Positions 12,361-36,922 of a stretch of 64,000 nucleotides of DNA are shown piece by piece. The position numbers and the translations under genes were made by a program. The notes below the pieces were generated by a model. It did no database searches. It was not told the DNA's origin and saw nothing but the letters and a program-made list of their open reading frames with translations. Origin of the DNA: the human T2T-CHM13v2.0 reference genome, Homo sapiens; the NCBI RefSeq assembly GCF_009914755.1, contig NC_060947.1. One strand, 5' to 3'. Each line of letters starts with the position of its first letter. Positions within the stretch are counted from its first letter, which is position 1.

Positions 12361-13766
12361 TAAAACCACATAATCATCTCAATAGATGCAGAAAAGGCCT
12401 TTGATAAAATTCAACATCCCTTCATGTTAAAAACACACAACAAAATAGGCATCAAAGGAACATATCACAAAATAATAACAGCTGTCTGTGACAAACCCAC
12501 AGCCAATATCATACTGAATGAGCAAAAGCTGGAAGCATTCCCCTTGAGGACCAGAACAAGACAAGAATGCTCACTCTCACCACTGCTATTTAATATAATG
12601 CTGAAACTCCTAGCTAGAGCAATCAGGTAAGAGGAAGAAATAAAAGGCATCCATGTAGAAAGAGAGGATATGAAATTATCTCTGTATGCAGCTAATATGA
12701 TTCTATACCTAGAACACCCCACAGTCTCTGCCCAAAAGCTCCTAGATCTGATAACAACTTAGGCAAAGTTTCAGCATACAACAATCATGTACAAAATTGG
12801 TAGCATTTCTATACACCAACAACAGCCAAGCTGAGAGCCAGATCAAGAATGTAATCTCATTCACAATAGCCACAAAAAAAATAAAATACCTAGGAATATA
12901 GCTAACCAGAGAGGTGAAACATCTCTACAATAAGAATTACAAAACACTGCTGAAAGAGATCAAAGATGACACAAGCAAATGGCTAAACATTCCATGCTCA
13001 TGGATAGGAAGAATCAATGTTGTAAAAAAATGGCCATACTGCCCGGAGCAACTTACAGATTCTATGCTATTCCTATTAAACTACCAATAATGTTTTTCAC
13101 GGAACTAGAAAAAACTATTTTAAAATTCATACGGAGCCAAAAAAGAGCCCAAATAGCCAAGGCAATCCTAAGCAAAAAGAACAAAGCTGAAGGCATCATG
13201 CTACTCAACTTCAAAATATAGTACAAGGCTACAGTAACCGTTACAGCATGGTGCTGGCACAAAAACAGGCACATAGACCAATGGAGCAGAATAGAGAGCC
13301 TAGACATAAGGCCACACATCCACAACCATCTGATCTTGAACAAAGTCAACAAAAACAATGAATGGGGAAAGGACTTCGTATTCCATAAATGGTGCTGGGA
13401 TAACTGGCTAGCTATATGCAGAAGAATGAAACTGGACCCTTTCCTTGCACCATATTCAAAAATCAACTCAGGATAGATTAAATACTTAAATGTAAAGCCT
13501 AAAACTATGAAAATCCTGGAAGTAAATCCAGGAAATACCATTCTGGACAAAGGTCTAGGCAAAGATTTCATGAGAAGATGCCAAAAGCAATTGCAACAAA
13601 AAAGAAAATTGACAAATGTGATCTAATTAAACTAAAGAGCTTCTGTACAGCAAAATAAACTATAAACAGAATAAACAGACAACCCACAGAATGAGAGAAA
13701 ATATTTGCAAACTATGCATTGACGAAGGTCTAATATCCAGTATCTATAAGGAATTTAAACATACTA

Positions 13767-14274
<508 letters not shown>

Positions 14275-15736
14275 GGTGGGCAAAGCCCATGAACATACAC
14301 TTCTCAAAAAAAGACATACATGCAGCCAACAATCATGTAAAAAAATGCTCAACACCACTAATCATTAGAGAAATGCAAATCAAAACTACCATGAGATAAC
14401 ATCTCACACTGTTCAGAATGGCCATTATCAAAAGTCAAAAAATATCAGATGTTGGTGAGGCTACAGAGAAAAGGGAATGCTTATACACTGCTGTTTGGAA
14501 TGTAAGTTAGTTCAATCATTATAGAAAGCAGTTTAGTGATTTCTCAAGAACTTAAAAGAAAACTACCATTCAACCCAGTAATCCCATTATTGGGTATATA
14601 CCCAAAGGAATATAAATTGTTCTAGCATAAAGGCACATGCATGTGTATGTTCACTGCAGCACTATTCACAATAGCAAAGACATGGAATCAATTTAAATGC
14701 CTATCAATGGTAGACTGGATAAAGAAAATGTAGTACCTATACACCATGGAATACTACATAGCCATAAAAAAGAATGAGATCATGTCCTTTTTAACAACAT
14801 GGATGAAGCTGGAGGTCATTATCCTATGTCCACTAACACAGGAACAGAAAGCCAAATACCTCATGTTCTCACCGATAAGTGGGAACTAAATATTGAGTAC
14901 ACATGACCACAAAGAAGGGAACAATAGATACTGAAACTACCTGAGGGTGGAATGTGGGAGGAGGGTGAGAATTTAAAAACTACCTATCAGATACTATGCT
15001 TATTACCTGGGTGACAAAATAATCTGTACACCAAAACCTGAGACATGCAACTTACCTATATAACAAACATGCACATATACACCTGAACCTGAAATGAAAG
15101 TTTAAAAAGTTTTTTTACACATCACATTGTACCCTATAAATATATTCAATACAAATGGTGGGTCTAAGTTTGTTCCACTGTTTTCTACAAATTTTTCATT
15201 GTGTTTCATTGTGGATTTAAGAGATGAGCTAATAAATTGATTTAGGCTCTAATAAATGCAATAGATGTATAGGATGTGTATACACATTATAGTAGAAGTC
15301 AAAATCCTCCTTTTTTCTCTAGAAAGCAAGATGTATTCTCTATACTTACTCTTTGGAAGGGCAATTATTTGCTTTAGTAAAACTGTAGTTGGAGATGCAA
15401 TGAAGCATAACAAAGCAATGATATTATGATGGTGTTAGGTTATTGATTCAAGAAAACTTAAATATTGCCTCAATTCACCTGTCTCTCCTTTTGAGGAGCT
15501 CAGAAGAGAGAAACAAAGACATCTGCAAGTCAGGCCAAGTAAAACTTTAGATTACTAACAGGAATTTTGCTTCTAATCCCAAGTGTGAGGCTCCAATAAC
15601 TTGGGCTGGGTCCCATGGCTGGCTCATTTACCCAAGCAAAGTTGACTTCAGTGGCCTAAAACCAAAGCATCCTAAAGGCCCATTTTGCCTCTCTTTCCTA
15701 AGTTCAAAAGTCACCGCTTTACTAGGACAAAAAGCC

Positions 15737-21358: not shown

Positions 21359-22635
21359 AAAGCATTTATTCTTGTACTTTCAGAAAAAAAACTGATATAC
21401 ACACATGTAAGTGTGCATCATATTTCGAATTGGCAATTTCCATTTTTTCTTTTATTCATATTATTAAATACTTAGTTATTACCCTTTTGCTACAGAACCA
21501 AGATGATTTTAGGGCATGAATTATATGGCATGATTCTGTAAGCACAATTTAGACAATATTTCCAGAAGAGTCAACTTCTTTGGAAAGTGGAAATGAGGCC
21601 AGTGTGAAGGGCAATCATTTCAGACTGACAGACTCTTAGGTTCTGTGATGTATCTGGACTGTGCTAAGCAATGTGGGTCCAGCAAGATGGGAGGGTCTCC
21701 CTCTGCCTTTGGACATTACACCTTTAGAGCCTATCAGACCAAGGCACCCACCTGTCTTGAACCAGCTGGGCAACACAAAAAGTCAGATAAATGTCCAAAG
21801 CTTCTATGCCACAGAGGCAAATCAGCATTCCCAAAGTGGGTGTTGAGTGGGGAGCCACAAAAAGTACTCATCGCTAACTAATGATATGGCAACTGGAACC
21901 AAGAAAACATACACCCTTCCAGACTGCCTTTAACGACTGACACACTGCCCTTCTTCATGCTGTCTCTCCCTCCTCCAGCTTCAGTGTCCCCTTCCTAAGG
22001 CTCCAGTTTGCTTAAGCTGCTGTTAGATGGGATAGTTAAATATGCATGCTTTCTATATATTAAAGAAAAAGCCCAAAAGTTCAACATTTTCCTGCTCAAA
22101 GGTGAAAAACAACCCCAAAAGTTTTTCTGGCCTTCATGATTTACTATATCTAATCCTCTGAAGTCTTCATATTTATTATCTAGTTGCATATACTAAAAAA
22201 CTAAGCTGAGATTCTTTGCTCCATCTAGCCTTGTCAGTAGTTTGCATAGTGCACTAAACTGGAAGATTCTGCTGGCCTGAGTAGTTTCCACTTACTCCTC
22301 TCCACTATTTTCAATGCTATTTTCCTCCCATCTACCTCATAGGAAAAGGCAGACCTAGGTCCACAAAAAAAAAATATATATATATATATTTAGGCATCTT
22401 CATTTCCATAAAGTGAGTCTTTTCACATGGAACATATTCCCAAATAGTTAACTATTTTGTTTTGTCTATAATACCAGCTGGCTGGGTTTTACAACCCTTT
22501 TTATTACAAAATAAAACATAGATACAGAAAACCCCACAATGCAATAGGATTGTTCCCTAGTAACCATCACCCAGGTCAAGAAACAAAATTTTACCAGCCA
22601 ACCTAGAAGGCTCTCAATGTTCCATGCCCCCAATC

Positions 22636-22935
22636 TTTTTTTTTTTTTTTTTTTTTGAGATGGAGTCTCACTCTGTTGCCCAGGCTGGAGTGCAGTGGCG
22701 CAATCTCGGCTCACTGCAACCTCCACCTCGTGGGCTCAAGGAATTCTCTGCCGCAGCCTCCCGAGTAGCTGGGATTACAGGTGCCCGCCACCACGCCCAC
22801 TTGGTTTTTGTATTTTTAGTAGAGACAGGGTTTCACCATTTTGGCGAGGCTGGTCTAGGACTCCTGACCTCTTGATCCACCCGCCTCGGCCCCCCAAAGT
22901 GCTGGGATTACCTGCGTGAGCCACCGCGCCCGGCC
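22636..22935 (-). mobile_element. Alu (AluS-like)
   Basis: T21 tail and a full dimer ending CCACCGCGCCCGGCC. Confidence 0.95.
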
Positions 22936-22946
22936 TCGCCCTCAAT

Positions 22947-24700
22947 CTTTTTTTAACTTTTATTTTAAGTGCAGGGGTACATGTGCTCGTTTGTTATATA
23001 GGTAAACTTGAGTCATGCAGGATTATAGTACAGATTATTTCATCACCCAGGTATTAAGCCTAGTGCCCATTAGTTATTTTTCCTGATCCTCTTCCTTTTC
23101 CAGCCCTCCACTCTCCAACTGACCCCAGTGTGTGTTGTTCCTCTCTATGTGTCTATGTGTTCTCATCATTTAGCTCCCACTTATAAGCGACAATATGCGG
23201 TATTTTCTTTTCTGTTCCTGTGTTAGTTTGCTAAGGTCTCCAGCTCCATCACTCTTCCTGGAAAGAACATAATCCTGTACTTTTTAATGGCTGCATAGTA
23301 TTCCATGGTGTACATGAACCACATTTTCTTTATCCAGTCTATCATTAATGGGCATTTAGGTTGATTCCATGCCTTTGCTATTCTGAATAGTGCTGCAATG
23401 AACATATGTGTGCGTGTGTCTTTATAATAGAATGATTTACATTTCTTTGGGTAGATACTCAGTAATGGGATTGCTGGGTCAAAGGGTATTTCTGTTTTTA
23501 GGTTTCTGCGGAATTGCCACACCGTCTTCCACAATGGTTGAACTAATTTATGCTCCCACCAACAGTGTATAAGCATTCCTTTTTATCTGCAACCTCGCCA
23601 GCATCTGCTATTTTTTTACTTTTTAATAATAGCCATTCTGACTGGTGTGAGATGGTATCTCATTGTGGTTTTGATTTGCATTTCTGTAATGATCAGAGAT
23701 CTTGAGCTTTTTATCATGTGATTGTTGGCTGCATGTATGTCCTCTTTTGAAAAGTGTCTGTTCATGTCCTTTGCCTACTTTTTATGGGGTTGTTTGTTTT
23801 CTTGTAGATTTGTTTAAGTTCCTTATAGATGCTGGATATTAGACCTTTGTTAGATGCATTGTTTGCAAACTTTTTCTCCCATTCTTTAGGTTGTCTGTTT
23901 ACTCTGTTGATACTCACCTTTGCTGCACAGAAGCTCTTTAGTCTAATCAGTTCCCATTTGTCTATTTTTGCTTTTGTTGCAATTGTTTTTGGCGTCTTTG
24001 TCATGAAATCTTTGCCCGTTCCTTTGTCCAGGATGGTATTGCCTTGGTTGCCTTCCAGGATTTTTACAGTTTTGGGTTTTACATTTAAGTCTTTAATCCA
24101 TCTTGAGTTAATTTTTGTATATGGTGTAAAGAAGGGGTCCAGTTTCAATCTTCTGCATATGGCTAGCCACTTATCCCAACACCATTTACTGAATAGGGAA
24201 TCCTTTTCCCATTGCTTGTTTTTGTCAGGTTTTCTGAAGATCAGAGAGTTGTGAGTGTGTGGGGTTATCTCTGGGTTCTCTATTCTGTTCCATTGGTCCA
24301 TGTGTCTGTTTTTGTACTAGTACCATGCTGTTTTGGTAACTTTCACCCTGTAGTATAATTTGAAGGCGAGTAGCATGATGTTTCCAGCTTTGTTCTTTCT
24401 GCTTAGGATTGCTTGGGCTATTCAGGCTCTTCTTTGTTTCCATACAAATTTTGAAATAGTTTTTTCTAGTTATGTGAAGAATCTCGATGGTAGTTTCATA
24501 GGAATTGCATTGAATCTATAAATTGCTTTGGACAGTATGGTCATTTTTATGATATTGATTCTTCCTATCCATGAGCATGGGATGTTTTTCCATTTGTTTG
24601 TGTCATCTCTCATTTCTTTGAGTAGCATTTTGTAATTCTCCTTGAAGAGATCCTTCACTTCCCTTGTTACCTGTATTCTGAGGTGTTTTATTCTTTTGTG
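22947..24700 (-). mobile_element. 5'-truncated L1PA (about L1PA12-14); left arm of the inverted pair
   Basis: Poly(T) plus the reverse complement of a 3'UTR; ORF2 C-terminal remnants ([11 protein letters not shown]..., HCWWEHKLVQPLWK). Degenerate TSD GCCCTCAATC / GTCCCTAATC. Confidence 0.95.
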
Positions 24701-24903
24701 CCTGTCCCTAATCTTAGCCCCCTCCTTCCTCTGAAAATAACTATCCTGACTTGCTTTTCTTTGTAGTTTTGTCTCCAAAGAGTACATACTTACTTATTCT
24801 AGTTTAATCTTGCCCATTAAAAAAACTGAAGTCACTTACTTGACAGTTTTCTTCTCCATCTGTTTCTTTTTCTCATGATCTGTTGAATAACTGGGGCAAT
24901 TGA

Positions 24904-25304
24904 TGATATGGTTTGGATCTGTGTCTCGGCCATATCTCATGCTGAATTGTAATCCCAAATGTTGGAGGTAGGGCCTAGTGGGAGGGATTTTGGTCACGGG
25001 GGCAGATACCTCATGGCTTGGTGTTTTCCTTGATGTAGTGTGTGAATTCTTTGAGATCTGGTTGTAAAATGTGTCACCTCCCACCAACTCTCTCGCTCTT
25101 GCTCCTGTTTTTGCAATGCGAAGTGCCTGCCCCAACTTAGCCTTCCAACATGAGTAAAACTCCCTGAGTCCTCCCCAGAACCTGAGCAGATGCTGGTGCC
25201 ATGCTTCCTGGACAGCTTACAGAACAGTGAGCCAATTAAACTTATTTTCTTTATAAATTACCTAGCCCTAGGTATTTATTTATAGCTACACAATGGACTA
25301 ACAC
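24904..25304 (+). mobile_element. MST (MSTA/B-like) MaLR 5' LTR
   Basis: TGATATGGTTTGGATCTGTGTC...GCCAATTAAAC...TTATAAATTACC...GGACTAACACA. Confidence 0.9.
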
Positions 25305-26195
25305 AGAAAGTTGGTACTGAGGAGTGGGGTCTTGTTATAAAGATACCTTAAAATGTGAAAGCAGCTTTGGAACTGGGTAAGGCAGAGGTTGGAAGAGTGT
25401 GGAGGGTGCAGAAGAAGACAGGAAGGTGAGGGAAAGTTTGGAACTCCTTAGAGACTTGTTGGATGGTTTTGACGAAAATGATGATAGTGATATGGACAAC
25501 GAAATCCAGGCTGATGAGGTCTTAGATGGAAATGGGGAACTTATTGGGACTGGAGCAAAGGTCATGCATGTTAGTCTTAGCAAAGAGCTTGGCTGTATTC
25601 TGTGCATGCCCTAGGGATCTGCAGCAGATTGAACTTATGAGTGATGACCTAGAGTATCTGGCAGAAGATATTTCTAAGCAACAAAACATTCAAAATGTGG
25701 GCTGGCTTTGCTCATATGCAGGAGCAAAGGAATGACTTAAAGTTGGAACTTATATTTAAACAGGAGGCAGAAAGTAAAAGTTTGTAAAATTTTACTGGCA
25801 ACCTGGCCATGTGGCAGAGAAATAAAAAGATTTTTCCGAAGCGGAAATTCAAGCAGTTTGTGGAGCAACCACTTGCTAGAGAAATTTGCATAAATAAAAT
25901 GGAGCCAAGTACTAATAGCCAAGACCATGGGGAAAAGGCCTTGAGGACATTTCAGAGACCTCTGCAGTAGCTCCTCCCATCACAGTCCCAGACTGCTAGG
26001 AGGAAAGAGTGGCTATATGGGCCAGGCCCAGGGTCCTGCTGCCCTGCACAGCCTCAGGACACTGCTCCCTTCATCCTCTCTGCTGCAGCTCCAGCCTCAG
26101 CTTAAAGGGACCCAGATACAGCTTGGGCTGCTGCCTCAGAGGGCGCAAGCGGTAAGCCTTGGCAGCTTCCACATGGTATTAAGCTGGTAGGTGTA
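25305..26195 (+). mobile_element. MST-int (MaLR internal region), truncated by L1
   Basis: AAGTTGGTAC primer-binding-like start; characteristic MaLR-int decayed ORF EGAEEDRKVRESLELLRDLL...DSDMDNEIQADEV. Confidence 0.88.
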
Positions 26196-26199
26196 CGTA

Positions 26200-28115
26200 A
26201 AACAGGAAATCTAGAAAAAAACTGATAAATTCCTGGACACATACACCCTCCTAAGACTAAAGATGCCTCAAAATAATAAGAGCCATTTACAACAAACCCA
26301 CAGCCAATATCACAGTGAATGGGCAAAAGCTGGAAGCATTCCCCTTGAAAATCGGCACAAGAAAAGATTCCCCCTCTCACTACTCCTATTCAACATAGTA
26401 TTGGAAGGTCTAACCAGGACAATCCAGCAAGAGAAAAAAATAAAGGCATTCAAATAAGAAGAGAGAAAGTCAAACTATTCCTGTTTGCAGATGACACAAT
26501 CCTATATCTAGAAAATCCCATCAACTCAGTCCAAAAGCTTCTTAAGCTGATAAGCAACTTCAGCAAAGTCTCAGGATACAGAATCAATGTGCAAAAATCA
26601 TGAGCATTTGTATACACAAACAACAGTCAAGCTGAGAGACAAATCATAAACAAATTTTCATTCACAATTGCCACAAAAAGAATAAAATACCTAGGAATAC
26701 AGGTAACAAGGGAAATGAAAGATCTCTACAAGAAGAATTACAAAACACTGCTCAAAGAAATCAGAGATGACACAAACAAATGGAAAAACATCCCATGCCC
26801 ATGGATAGGAAGAATCAAATCATAAAAATGGCCATACTGTCCAAAGCAATTTATAGATTCAATGCAATTCCTATGAAACTACCATCGAGATTCTTCACAT
26901 AACTAGAAAAAACTATTTCAAAATTTGCATGGAAACAAAGAAGAGCCTGAATAGCCCAAGCAATCCTAAGCAGAAAGAACAAAGCTGGAAACATCATGCT
27001 ACTCGCCTTCAAATTATACTACAGGGTGAAAGTTACCAAAACAGCATGGTACTAGTACAAAAACAGACACATGGACCAATGGAACAGAATAGAGAACCCA
27101 GAGATAACCCCACACACTCACAACTCTCTGATCTTCAGAAAACCTGACAAAAACAAGCAATGGGAAAAGGATTCCCTATTCAGTAAATGGTGTTGGGATA
27201 AGTGGCTAGCCATATGCAGAAGATTGAAACTGGACCCCTTCTTTACACCATATACAAAAATTAACTCAAGATGGATTAAAGACTTAAATGTAAAACCCAA
27301 AACTGTAAAAATCCTGGAAGGCAACCAAGGCAATACCATCCTGGACAAAGGAACGGGCAAAGATTTCATGACAAAGACGCCAAAAACAATTGCAACAAAA
27401 GCAAAAATAGACAAATGGGAACTGATTAGACTAAAGAGCTTCTGTGCAGCAAAGGTGAGTATCAACAGAGTAAACAGACAACCTAAAGAATGGGAGAAAA
27501 AGTTTGCAAACAATGCATCTAACAAAGGTCTAATATCCAGCATCTATAAGGAACTTAAACAAATCTACAAGAAAACAAACAACCCCATAAAAAGTAGGCA
27601 AAGGACATGAACAGACACTTTTCAAAAGAGGACATACATGCAGCCAACAATCACATGATAAAAAGCTCAAGATCTCTGATCATTACAGAAATGCAAATCA
27701 AAACCACAATGAGATACCATCTCACACCAGTCAGAATGGCTATTATTAAAAAGTAAAAAAATAGCAGATGCTGGCGAGGTTGCAGATAAAAAGGAATGCT
27801 TATACACTGTTGGTGGGAGCATAAATTAGTTCAACCATTGTGGAAGACGGTGTGGCAATTCCACAGAAACCTAAAAGCAGAAATACCCTTTGACCCAGCA
27901 ATCCCATTACTGAGTATCTACCCAAAGAAATGTAAATCATTCTATTATAAAGACACACGCACACATATGTTCATTGCAGCACTATTCAGAATAGCAAAGG
28001 CATGGAATCAACCTAAATGCCCATTAATGATAGACTGGATAAAGAAAATGTGGTACATGTACACCATGGAATACTATGCAGCCATAAAAAAGAACGAGGG
28101 TTCTTTGCAGGAACA
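26200..28115 (+). mobile_element. L1PA ORF2 fragment lacking its 3'UTR; right arm of the inverted pair
   Basis: ORF2 reverse-transcriptase and C-terminal remnants. ORFs 26929-27147, 27071-27610 and 27118-27543 translate identically to the mirrored ORFs in the left arm. Confidence 0.95.
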
Positions 28116-28947
28116 AAGCAGGGTCTTTGCAGGAACAAATCAGGGTCCTCTAAGAAGCAGGACCAGGTTACCCACGTCTAAGCGTGTGCCAGAGGAGGGC
28201 GGTGGAAGCAAAATGTTCATAAGTTCTTGGGTCACTGAGCAAGCAGGCAGTCTCAGAATCTTTTGGGTCAGCTGCTAGTCCTGACCCTGGCCATTTTGCC
28301 TGATAAAGATTATCATCAAAGACATTAGCAAATGCACCAGCTCTGGCTTAACAGTTGGGCTTCAGCAGTGAGGAATAAAGCTGGTCCTATCCTTTTCTAC
28401 CTCTCCCTATTCCCACATATACATAAAGTTTCTGCTAGAGTAATTTTTTAGAGCCTCAGCTTCTGACCTCAGGAGTCACAAAGAAGAAAGGGAAATACAT
28501 AACCCCAAACAGGCACACACCCTCACATATCCATCCCTGTATATCCATTATGCTGTAGTTTTTCTGATTTTATGATGGGGAACATAAAGTAAAAGCAAAC
28601 AAAATGGAAAAAGAATGAACAAAATTAAAATCCTACCTTCTAATTAACAACATAAGAAGAATGTGCCTAAGGAAACTCTAGATACCCAGAGTTTCCTCTC
28701 CTAACTCCCCTGAGGTAGAATGGAGAAGATCTCTATAGAGTTAAAGATCAATTAGAGAGAAATGTGGTGCCAGAGTAACCTGGTTCTCTAGTACAAGGAA
28801 ACAGATGAGTGAATAGAATAATTATATAGTAGAACATATTATAATAGAGTTATGTATATATGGTATGCTTGCTGTACAGGCGTGGGACATGTAACCCATC
28901 TTGGGAAAGAAAAGGTGGTCAGGACCTATATGCATAAAGGTCTCTCT

Positions 28948-35700: not shown

Positions 35701-36021
35701 GCTGATGTAATAATAAGAGCAGCTAACATTTATGGCATCCTTGGACAGTGCTAACTACTTTCTAGGGATTTGCTTCTTTTCTCCTCACACCTACCTCATG
35801 AGATTATTGCTATTTCCAGTGGTCACACAATCAGTGGTAGGTGCTAGAGCTGAGACGTGACCCCACAGTGGTCTGATCCCAAACTGGTTTTCATTCTCAA
35901 TTTATTGCTACATCAAAAAATATAAGTGCCTTAAAAACCGCTTTGGGGACACATGAATGAAGCATACTCAGGATCATCATCCATCATAAGTTCTAGAAGG
36001 CACTATGAAAAGGATCCTCTT

Positions 36022-36437
36022 TGTATTAGTCCGTTCTCACATTGCTATAAATACCTGAGACTGAGTAATTTGTAAAGAAAAGAGGTTTGATTGGCTCATG
36101 GCTTTGCAAGCTGTACAGAAAGCATGATGCTGACATCCGCTCAGCTTCTGGGGAGGCCTCAGGAAACTTACAATCATGGTGGAAGGTGAAGGGGAAGCCA
36201 GCACTTCACATTGCCAGGGCAGATGCAAGAGAAATGGGGGAAGGTGCTACACACTTTTAAACAACCAGATTGTGTGAGAACTCACTATCACAAGAACAGC
36301 ACCAAAGGGATGGTGTTAAGCCATTCATGAGAAATCCACTGCCATGATCAAATTACCTCCCATCAGGCCCCATCTCCAACACTACGGATTACAATTTGAC
36401 ATGAGATGTTGTGAGAACACAGATCCAAACCATATCA
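36022..36437 (-). mobile_element. MSTA-like solo LTR
   Basis: TGTATTAGTCCGTTCTCACATTGCTATAAA...CAGATCCAAACCATATCA; 5-bp TSD CTCTT / TTCTT. Confidence 0.92.
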
Positions 36438-36922
36438 TTCTTTAAAAGTCTGTGTAACAGTGGAGAATGGTGGCTGGGAGTACTGCCACTGGGTGGCTAC
36501 TTTGTCTACTTCCTATGGGCAAAATGTCAATTTCCCTTCCTTCGCTCACACTCAACCCCCATACCACCCAGCACCACCCAATACGGTGCCAAACTGACTC
36601 TGACATCTCTTTAAATGCATTCCCTGGAGGCACTGGAGAAAGGCAAGAAACATGCTGGACAGAGCAACAGGAGCCCTTGAGTTGGGCTTACTCCTGCCTT
36701 GATCACACTGAAGAGTTGTTGAAAATAATCATTTATCTTTTTCAGCTTCCCTTTTCACACCTATGAAACAAGATTGTTCCTATTTGGAATAATGTAACAG
36801 TAGGCAGAGGTAACTCAGAAGCCCCCAGGAGATGCTGTAAACTTGATACTTTAAAGGAACTCATCATGTTAACTGGCTGAACTGCCATCCTTAGACCCCA
36901 CTGAAATTTGCAATGTGACTGC

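What the first reader, a model, noticed from the sequence alone, without database searches (positions are those of the whole stretch)
22947..28115. Two old inverted L1 copies homogenised to near identity over about 1.25 kb (gene-conversion tract)
Seen: the left (minus) and right (plus) L1 arms mirror about position 25686. Across about 23286-24540 versus 26832-28086 I found only about 4 mismatches in the lines compared, and three mirrored ORFs (72, 141 and 179 aa) translate identically. Inward of 24540/26831 differences reappear (3 in the first 60 bp). Identity then falls to about 87-90%, for example 8 mismatches in 60 bp at 24601-24660. The arms also diverge outward of about 23285/28087. Known: old L1PA copies normally differ from one another by roughly 10% or more, and inverted repeats undergo intrachromosomal gene conversion. 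Inference: these are two independent insertions with different 5' ends (only the left has a poly(A) and TSD), later homogenised by recent or repeated conversion. They are not a simple duplication.
Basis: partly seen in the sequence, partly recalled or inferred. Interest (0 to 1): 0.82.

Follow-up and report, generated by a model that had tools for sequence, protein, structure and literature searches.

The report
Gene conversion between two inverted L1s
Two old, separately inserted L1 retrotransposon fragments facing each other on the human X chromosome have had about 1.25 kb of one copied over the other, a clean but ordinary case of a known DNA-repair process.

Summary
Window 23274-24700 is an inverted repeat of 28099-26672 (98.46%). 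Identity is uneven. A 1254-bp core (23287-24540 / 26832-28085) has 4 mismatches. The inner 160 bp has 14 differences and the outer 30 bp has 5 (Fisher p=7e-11 and 6e-7).

Both arms are L1 ORF2 sequence and stay colinear with other L1 copies across the tract edges. They have different ends. The left L1 (minus, 22948-24700) has a tail, a 5' truncation and a 10/13 target-site duplication. The right L1 (plus, 26191-~28115) reaches 480 bp further 5', has an internal ~550-bp deletion and lacks its 3' end.

The next-best copy of the core in the genome is 83-84% identical (40 scored of 25158 candidates), so there is no third donor.

Best reading: two independent insertions, then in-register intrachromosomal gene conversion, last acting about 0.4-8 Myr ago. 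Whether this was one event or recurrent conversion is unresolved. A GC-bias test was only suggestive after controls. The donor arm could not be told.

The centre is not L1. It is unique DNA plus a truncated LTR element. This is a new member of a known kind, of low to moderate interest.

The parts
22948..24700 (-). Left L1 fragment: ORF2 C-terminal part, 3' UTR and short A-rich tail, 5'-truncated at 24700
   Evidence: The 3' end and tail were read. The 5' end of homology is at 24700. It is colinear with other genomic L1 copies at 80-85%.
22623..22635 (+). Candidate target-site duplication of the left L1, tail side. It is now separated from the tail by an Alu whose own TSD re-duplicated part of it at 22936-22947.
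   Evidence: CATGCCCCCAATC here against CCTGTCCCTAATC at 24701-24713: 10 of 13 match, read.
24701..24713 (+). Candidate target-site duplication of the left L1, 5' side, directly after the truncation point
   Evidence: 10/13 match, in direct orientation. This implies the spacer is in its ancestral orientation in this assembly.
23287..24540 (-). Homogenised core tract, left arm (1254 bp; about ORF2p residues 816-1234)
   Evidence: 4 mismatches to the right arm. The central 934 bp (23510-24443) is identical. The best third copy in the genome is 83-84%. The residue range is inferred.
26832..28085 (+). Homogenised core tract, right arm
   Evidence: 27056-27610 matches human L1 ORF2p residues 891-1071, E=2.2e-83.
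24541..24700 (-). Inner flank, left arm: L1 homology at background divergence
   Evidence: 12 mismatches and 2 one-base indels to 26672-26831. There are 8 left-private, 4 right-private and 4 shared derived sites of 147.
26672..26831 (+). Inner flank, right arm
   Evidence: 86-93% to 28 other copies chosen on this region, and 81-86% to 8 chosen on the core.
23257..23286 (-). Outer flank, left arm: still L1, diverged from the right arm
   Evidence: 3 mismatches and 2 indels against 28086-28115. p=5.8e-7 against the core.
28086..28115 (+). Outer flank, right arm: the last L1 sequence of the right copy
   Evidence: Aligns to other L1 copies (L027 28080-28115, region D). No L1 3' end or tail follows it.
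26191..28115 (+). Right L1 fragment: ORF2 from the RT region onward. It has an internal deletion of about 550 bp at 26261/26262 and no 3' end.
   Evidence: 26191-26261 maps about 550 bp upstream of 26262 onward in 10 other copies. RVT_1 scores 26.9 bits at 26349-26603, below the Pfam cut-off of 29.6. Colinear HSPs.
24714..24903 (.). Non-repeated DNA between the left L1 and the LTR element
   Evidence: The first 190 bases of the query have no match other than itself among the 40 scored.
24904..26190 (+). Truncated LTR retrotransposon in the spacer: 5' LTR 24904-25286 plus an internal part, cut at 26190 where the right L1 begins
   Evidence: 73-79% to many copies (40 scored of 14070 candidates). 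In two fetched copies the first ~380 bp recurs about 2 kb downstream, which is LTR structure. The remainder is absent from the window.
28098..28139 (+). Two tandem copies of a ~21-bp piece of L1 at the right L1's broken 3' edge
   Evidence: Read. A possible scar of the deletion that removed the L1 3' end and the rest of the LTR element (inference).

Best explanation
Two L1 fragments of the same old family inserted independently, about 2 kb apart and in opposite orientation. The left one landed in unique DNA. The right one landed inside an LTR element.

A break in one arm was later repaired using the other arm on the same chromatid or the sister as template. This is homology-directed repair without crossover, i.e. 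non-allelic gene conversion. It overwrote about 1.25 kb in register, leaving the outer ~30 bp and inner ~160 bp of shared L1 sequence at their original divergence.

Shown: the mosaic identity, the colinearity of both arms, their independent ends, and the absence of a third donor. Inferred: the repair mechanism and its timing. The last homogenisation was roughly 1.6-3.2 Myr ago (95% range 0.4-8 Myr), assuming 0.5-1e-9 substitutions per site per year.

I lean about 55:45 to repeated conversion that began while the copies were still similar, over a single late event between copies already ~16% diverged.
For: 1. Core 4/1254 differences vs inner flank 14/160 (Fisher p=6.8e-11) and outer flank 5 events/30 (p=5.8e-7).
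2. Both arms align as single colinear HSPs to other genomic L1s across both tract edges, e.g. L005, L010, L018, L023. The tract is therefore an in-register replacement.
3. The ends are independent. The left L1 stops at 24700 next to a 10/13 TSD and has a tail. The right L1 continues 5' to 26191 with its own ~550-bp deletion and lacks a 3' end.
4. Background: arms vs 38 other copies are 83-85% in the core. The best third copy of the core is 83-84% (40 scored of 25158 candidates).
5. Region B carries private changes in both arms (8 left, 4 right). Its 4 shared derived sites are not unusual: 4.9% of 630 control pairs have >=4.
6. At 23509/27863 the arms read G and A where 31/31 other copies read T. 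The left is in a CpG and the right is CpA, which fits a shared derived state followed by a post-conversion mutation.
7. The derived-site density of the core (79/1160) matches that of the arm-specific parts (30/378, 23/259), so the tract is as old as the arms.
8. For recurrence: a perfect 934-bp centre, sparse mismatches near the edges, then 3 differences in 70 bp and then 12 in 90 bp at the inner edge (p=0.06). The W>S excess in the core has OR 3.7 vs 1.4 pooled in controls.
9. Non-allelic conversion between TE copies, dependent on distance and identity, is established (PMC6598467, passages read).
Against: - No orthologous sequence from other primates and no second human haplotype could be examined. 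Neither the phylogenetic signature of conversion nor the correctness of the assembly was tested.
- The TSD is only 10/13.
- The right L1 has no tail or TSD, so its independent insertion rests on its extra 5' sequence and its junction with the LTR element.
- The GC-bias signal mostly dissolved under control. Other single-copy L1s also show more W>S in this region (0.48 vs 0.39). The arms' W>S fraction of 0.565 is matched or exceeded by 5 of 37 controls, and Fisher vs pooled controls gives p=0.20.
- The inner-edge gradient is not significant (p=0.06).
- The donor arm could not be identified.
- Homology-directed repair between copies ~16% diverged is expected to be inefficient (established knowledge, recalled). 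This is a difficulty for the single-late-event version.
Confidence: 0.85

Rival explanations
1. A single, recent, one-off conversion between two copies that were already about 16% diverged (homeologous repair). This is a variant of the main reading, in place of long-running concerted evolution.
For: The outer edge is abrupt. Region B shows no excess of shared derived sites. The GC-bias and gradient signals are not significant after controls. A cited experiment reports breaks in a chromosomal LINE repaired from other endogenous LINEs (Tremblay et al. 2000, seen only as cited in PMC3055243; the paper itself is not held).
Against: With ~84% identity, long perfect-match stretches to start recombination would be lacking (recalled knowledge on homology requirements). 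The graded pattern of a perfect 934-bp centre, sparse edge mismatches and a 4% zone before a 13% zone fits several events with different end points. The core-vs-flank W>S odds ratio is tied for highest of 39.
Confidence: 0.38
2. The pair arose as an inverted duplication of one L1 (a small palindrome born by duplication). Its edges have since escaped conversion and diverged.
For: High arm identity with a spacer is the usual palindrome picture. The right arm has no tail or TSD of its own.
Against: Homology is confined to L1 and stops exactly at the left L1's 5' truncation next to its TSD. The right L1 carries ~480 bp more 5' L1 in register and the left carries the 3' end, so neither arm can be a copy of the other. 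Region B has more private than shared derived sites, and the shared count is within controls.
Confidence: 0.06
3. Assembly or polishing artefact: reads from one arm were used to correct the other, creating false identity.
For: This could not be tested here. Identical inverted copies 2.3 kb apart could in principle mislead short-read polishing.
Against: The tract still holds 4 arm-specific differences and sits in register between arm-specific flanks. The whole structure is under 5 kb, which is shorter than the long reads used for such assemblies (general knowledge, not checked for this locus).
Confidence: 0.03
4. One L1 insertion with a 5' inversion (twin priming), or conversion of both arms by a third, younger L1.
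For: Inverted L1 segments lying side by side are common. 3 of the 28 set-A L1 loci (L003, L012, L020) show such inversions.
Against: The arms overlap by 1.43 kb in L1 coordinates and are separated by 1.5 kb of non-L1 DNA. The TSD brackets the left L1 alone. No copy above 84% exists elsewhere among those scored.
Confidence: 0.01

Closest known systems
Non-allelic (interlocus) gene conversion between dispersed transposable-element copies, e.g. Alu-Alu conversion (reviewed in PMC6598467, passages read; PMC8230782, listing and abstract only)
   Same: A stretch of one TE copy is replaced in register by the sequence of a nearby copy of the same family, lowering their divergence. Short distance favours it.
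   Different: Here the elements are L1 fragments, the tract is long (about 1.25 kb) and the partners are inverted, so the pair is also a small palindrome. I found no description of this locus in the papers I opened. That is not a search of the whole literature.
Sex-chromosome palindromes kept >99% identical by arm-to-arm gene conversion (PMC8327919, PMC8981503, PMC3723533: search listings and abstracts only)
   Same: Inverted arms on a sex chromosome with a unique spacer and arm identity above 99% attributed to intrachromosomal conversion. Possibly GC-biased.
   Different: The arms here are 1.25 kb rather than many kb. They descend from two separate TE insertions rather than a duplication, carry no gene, and their conservation in other primates is untested.
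Inverted repeats made of TEs that mediate polymorphic inversions (PMC3961182, table passages read: HsInv0341 with 6.2-kb L1PA3 repeats, HsInv0347 with 1.6-kb THE1C repeats)
   Same: TE-derived inverted repeats of similar size flank a few kb of spacer. The same recombination intermediates give either conversion or inversion.
   Different: No inversion is known to me at this locus, and it is not among the chrX entries of that paper's table. The TSD arrangement indicates the ancestral orientation in this assembly.

Membership tests
Non-allelic gene-conversion tract | A block of much higher identity bounded on both sides by homologous sequence at background divergence | tested here: met
   Core 4/1254, inner flank 14/160 (p=6.8e-11), outer flank 5 events/30 (p=5.8e-7).
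Non-allelic gene-conversion tract | In-register replacement: both paralogues stay colinear with the family across the tract edges | tested here: met
   Single HSPs of other L1 copies span left positions 21-1732 and right positions 61-1899, crossing both boundaries.
Non-allelic gene-conversion tract | The two paralogues have separate origins, or are at least older than the tract | tested here: met
   Different 5' ends, a left-only tail and TSD, and a right-only 5' extension and deletion. Flank divergence is within the range of unrelated copies.
Non-allelic gene-conversion tract | Tree discordance: paralogues group by species in the tract and by position in the flanks | not testable with these tools
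   Only the window's own genome is held. No other primate sequence was available.
Non-allelic gene-conversion tract | The donor is the partner arm, not a third locus | tested here: met
   The best other genomic match to the core is 83-84% (40 scored of 25158 candidates). The scoring is not exhaustive.
L1 (LINE-1) retrotransposon fragment | ORF2 protein homology, RT motif, 3' tail and TSD | tested here: met
   ORF2p residues 891-1071 match at E=2.2e-83. RVT_1 scores 26.9 bits, below the 29.6 cut-off. The left copy has a tail and a 10/13 TSD. The subfamily (L1PA or other) was not tested.
Large sex-chromosome palindrome | Arms of many kb with >99% identity, born by duplication, often with testis genes | tested here: not met
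   The arms are 1.25-1.43 kb and made of two separate L1 insertions. No gene is annotated (hub annotation). Only the identity criterion is met.
Plain inverted segmental duplication | Uniform identity over the block, extending into non-repeat flanks | tested here: not met
   Identity is heterogeneous. Homology is limited to L1 and ends at the left L1's truncation.
L1 twin-priming inversion | Two abutting, adjacent L1 segments in opposite orientation inside one TSD pair | tested here: not met
   The segments overlap by 1.43 kb of L1 coordinates and are separated by 1.5 kb of non-L1 DNA. The TSD brackets the left L1 only.

The most novel reading that the evidence does not exclude
This would be a miniature palindrome born from two transposon insertions. 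It would have been kept homogeneous by recurrent, GC-biased arm-to-arm conversion for tens of millions of years since shortly after the second L1 landed. Its converted domain would be slowly shrinking from the edges. It may also flip its 2.3-kb spacer recurrently in human populations. That would show the conversion regime known from large X/Y palindromes also operating on kilobase-scale, gene-free TE pairs.
Probability: 0.35. Interest if true: 0.45.

Novelty: new member of a known kind. Interest (0 to 1): 0.28.

Why it matters
It is a tidy natural example of how nearby transposon copies exchange sequence. Three consequences follow.

1. Divergence-based dating or subfamily calling of these two L1s would be misled. 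The arms look 0.3% apart although each is about 7-9% from its family.
2. A 1.25-kb, 99.7% identical inverted repeat with a 2.3-kb spacer is a plausible substrate for a small recurrent inversion. It is also a trap for short-read mapping.
3. If ape orthologues show the same homogenisation, the locus would give a lower size limit for long-term palindrome maintenance on the X.

None of this changes current understanding. No gene or annotated regulatory element is involved.

Tried and rejected
**GC-biased conversion**
- A site-permutation test showed the core relatively GC-enriched against its flanks (p=0.0005-0.011).
- Polarised changes gave W>S 33: S>W 27 in the core vs 17: 40 in the flanks (p=0.009).
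- The control on 38 single-copy L1s showed the same regional tendency (0.48 vs 0.39). The arms' core fraction of 0.565 is not an outlier: 5 of 37 controls reach it, p=0.20.
- Only the core-vs-flank odds ratio stands out (3.69, tied for top of 39; computed by hand from the table).
- I treat this as suggestive only.

**Earlier conversion of the inner flank.** The 4 shared derived sites are within the control distribution. The 8.75% divergence is compatible with a 12% background (binomial p=0.12) but low against 16% (p=0.006). Unresolved, leaning to 'never converted'.

**Donor arm.** Rank correlation of similarity to other copies between the core and each arm's private parts gave rho 0.24 and 0.29 (right) and 0.10 and -0.10 (left), none significant.

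**Known inversion at this locus.**
- It is not among the chrX entries in the PMC3961182 table passages.
- A supplement search of PMC6748972 covered 12 of 18 files and gave nothing relevant.
- Larger catalogues were not searchable by coordinate. bioRxiv supplements are closed and could bear on this.

**Other steps that gave nothing**
- Pfam on 9 spacer ORFs: no family.
- Tremblay et al. 2000 is not held.
- One literature search failed on a too-short term and was re-sent.

No complex, structure or RNA search was relevant.
Full report
**1. The observation**

- The repeat finder reports arms 23277-24553 / 26819-28095 (1277 nt, 99%), continued by 24555-24697 / 26676-26818 (143 nt, 92%).
- blastn joins them as 23274-24700 against 28099-26672: 98.46% over 1429 columns, 19 mismatches, 3 gap openings. 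The mirror point is 25686.5.
- A base-by-base list shows 4 mismatches inside 23287-24540 (at 23317, 23495, 23509, 24444) and a perfect central run of 934 bp.
- The inner 160 bp has 12 mismatches plus two 1-bp indels.
- The first 30 bp outward of 23286/28086 has 3 mismatches plus two indels.
- The heterogeneity is far beyond chance. Core vs inner flank gives Fisher p=6.8e-11. Core vs outer flank gives p=5.8e-7.
- No other pair in the window reaches 92% over 150 bp.

**2. Anatomy**

*Both arms are L1 ORF2 sequence.* The 184-codon open stretch 27056-27610 matches human L1 ORF2p residues 891-1071 (E=2.2e-83). By arithmetic the core then corresponds to about residues 816-1234.

*Left copy (minus strand, 22948-24700).*
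- Its 3' end and short A-rich tail sit at 22948-22970.
- An Alu (poly-T 22636-22656, body to 22935) inserted at the tail junction with its own duplication.
- The L1 is 5'-truncated at 24700.
- The 13 bases that follow (24701-24713) match 22623-22635 at 10 of 13 positions in direct orientation. This is a plausible, decayed target-site duplication.

*Right copy (plus strand, 26191 to about 28115).*
- It runs about 480 bp further 5' into the RT region. RVT_1 scores 26.9 bits, under the Pfam cut-off of 29.6.
- It carries an internal deletion of about 550 bp at 26261/26262 relative to 10 other copies.
- It ends without a 3' UTR or tail.
- Nothing resembling the left copy's last 330 bp lies to its right in the window.
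- Its edge shows two tandem copies of a ~21-bp L1 piece.

*The spacer is not L1.*
- 24714-24903 has no other match among those scored.
- 24904-26190 is the 5' LTR plus part of the interior of an LTR retrotransposon. It is 73-79% identical to many copies (40 scored of 14070 candidates). Two fetched copies show the LTR recurring about 2 kb downstream.
- That element stops at 26190, exactly where the right L1 starts. Its remainder is absent.
- The simplest history is that the right L1 inserted into the LTR element. One later deletion then removed the L1's 3' end together with the rest of the LTR element (inference).

**3. Background and controls from the same genome**

The window's assembly could be searched.
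- For the core, the best match other than the two arms is 83-84% identical (40 scored of 25158 candidates).
- For 24480-24700, the best other match is 89% and the right arm is 94% (40 scored of 6197).
- I used 38 other L1 copies as comparators: 28 chosen on the inner flank (set A) and 10 chosen on the core (set B). No rows were dropped. Loci were counted for a region only if they covered at least 80% of it.
- Against these, the arms are 82.7-83.6% identical in the core.
- In the inner flank they are 88.4-89.5% (set A, maxima 90.6 and 93.2) or 83.4-83.6% (set B).
- The 91% between the arms in the inner flank is thus at the top of, but not outside, what unrelated copies show.
- Other copies align to each arm as single colinear HSPs crossing both tract boundaries. 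The tract is therefore an in-register replacement with no junction.

**4. Independent histories outside the tract, shared history inside**

Per-site tallies of the other copies were used only to polarise differences.
- The inner flank has 8 left-private, 4 right-private and 4 shared derived sites of 147.
- Four or more shared sites occur in 4.9% of 630 control pairs, and in 3 of 36 left-vs-other and 4 of 36 right-vs-other comparisons. There is no evidence that the flank was ever homogenised.
- In the core, 79 of 1160 informative sites are derived and shared by both arms. This is similar to the private derived densities of the right-only (30/378) and left-only (23/259) parts. The tract is therefore as old as the arms and not an import from a younger element.
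- Of the 4 core mismatches, 23317 is a left-private change (31 of 33 others agree with the right arm).
- At 23509/27863 the arms read G and A where 31 of 31 others read T. The left is in a CpG and the right reads CpA. This fits a shared derived base followed by a post-conversion transition.

**5. Mechanism and timing**

The pattern is the textbook footprint of non-allelic gene conversion. A break in one arm is repaired from the inverted partner 2.3 kb away, without crossover. A crossover would instead invert 24541-26831.

The direct orientation of the left L1's duplication suggests this assembly carries the ancestral orientation.

Four differences in 1254 bp (0.32%; Poisson 95% range 0.09-0.82%) put the last homogenisation at about 1.6-3.2 Myr. 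The range is 0.4-8 Myr for 0.5-1e-9 substitutions per site per year. The rates are assumed, not measured here.

**6. One event or many?**

This stays open.

For recurrence:
- Copies ~16% apart are poor recombination partners (recalled knowledge), whereas young copies of one family would not have been.
- Identity is graded: a perfect centre, sparse edge mismatches, then 3 differences in 70 bp, then 12 in 90 bp (p=0.06).
- The core shows relatively more weak-to-strong changes than the flanks.

Against:
- Ordinary single-copy L1s show the same regional tendency. After that control the arms' W>S fraction is unremarkable (0.565 vs pooled 0.48; 5 of 37 controls as high; p=0.20).
- Only the core-vs-flank odds ratio (3.69, tied highest of 39, computed by hand from the table) stands out.
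- The donor arm could not be inferred.

**7. Comparison with what is known**

- Conversion between TE copies, dependent on distance and identity, is well described (PMC6598467, passages).
- Breaks in LINEs repaired from other LINEs are cited in PMC3055243 (passage). The primary paper is not held.
- TE-made inverted repeats of 1.6-6.2 kb mediate human inversions (PMC3961182, table passages). This locus is not in that table.
- Large X and Y palindromes are kept >99% identical by conversion (PMC8327919, PMC8981503, PMC3723533; listings and abstracts only).
- The present case differs from palindromes in size, in its origin from two insertions, and in lacking genes. It fails the tests for a plain duplication and for L1 twin priming.

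**8. Verdict**

- The family background is about 16%, not about 10%.
- The subfamily is untested.
- The centre is not L1.
- Homology ends at 24700.

It is a clean new instance of a known process. Its interest is modest unless cross-species data show long-term maintenance.

Noticed in passing
window 24904-26190 and 36021-36441: The spacer holds a truncated LTR retrotransposon: a ~380-bp LTR plus about 900 bp of interior, 73-79% identical to many genomic copies. A solo LTR of the same family lies about 10 kb downstream in the opposite orientation. The family name could not be assigned without a repeat library.
   Followed up: partly
window 22636-22935: An Alu (minus strand, 21-T tail) inserted exactly at the junction of the left L1's A-tail and its flank. 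It duplicated about 10-17 bp that include part of the L1's own target-site duplication.
   Followed up: partly
window 26261/26262: The right L1 has an internal deletion of about 550 bp relative to 10 other copies. 26191-26261 maps that far upstream in L1 coordinates.
   Followed up: yes
window 28098-28139: Two tandem copies of a ~21-bp L1-derived motif lie at the point where the right L1 breaks off. This may be a scar of the deletion that removed its 3' end.
   Followed up: no
window 12468-15108: A third L1 fragment (plus strand) covers the same ORF2-to-3'-end span. It is about 81% identical to the arms and is interrupted by an insertion of about 450 bp near 13815-14270.
   Followed up: partly
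loci L003, L012, L020 (other chromosomes of the same genome): Three of the 28 set-A comparison L1 copies show adjacent L1 segments in opposite orientation, the pattern expected of 5'-inverted (twin-primed) insertions.
   Followed up: no
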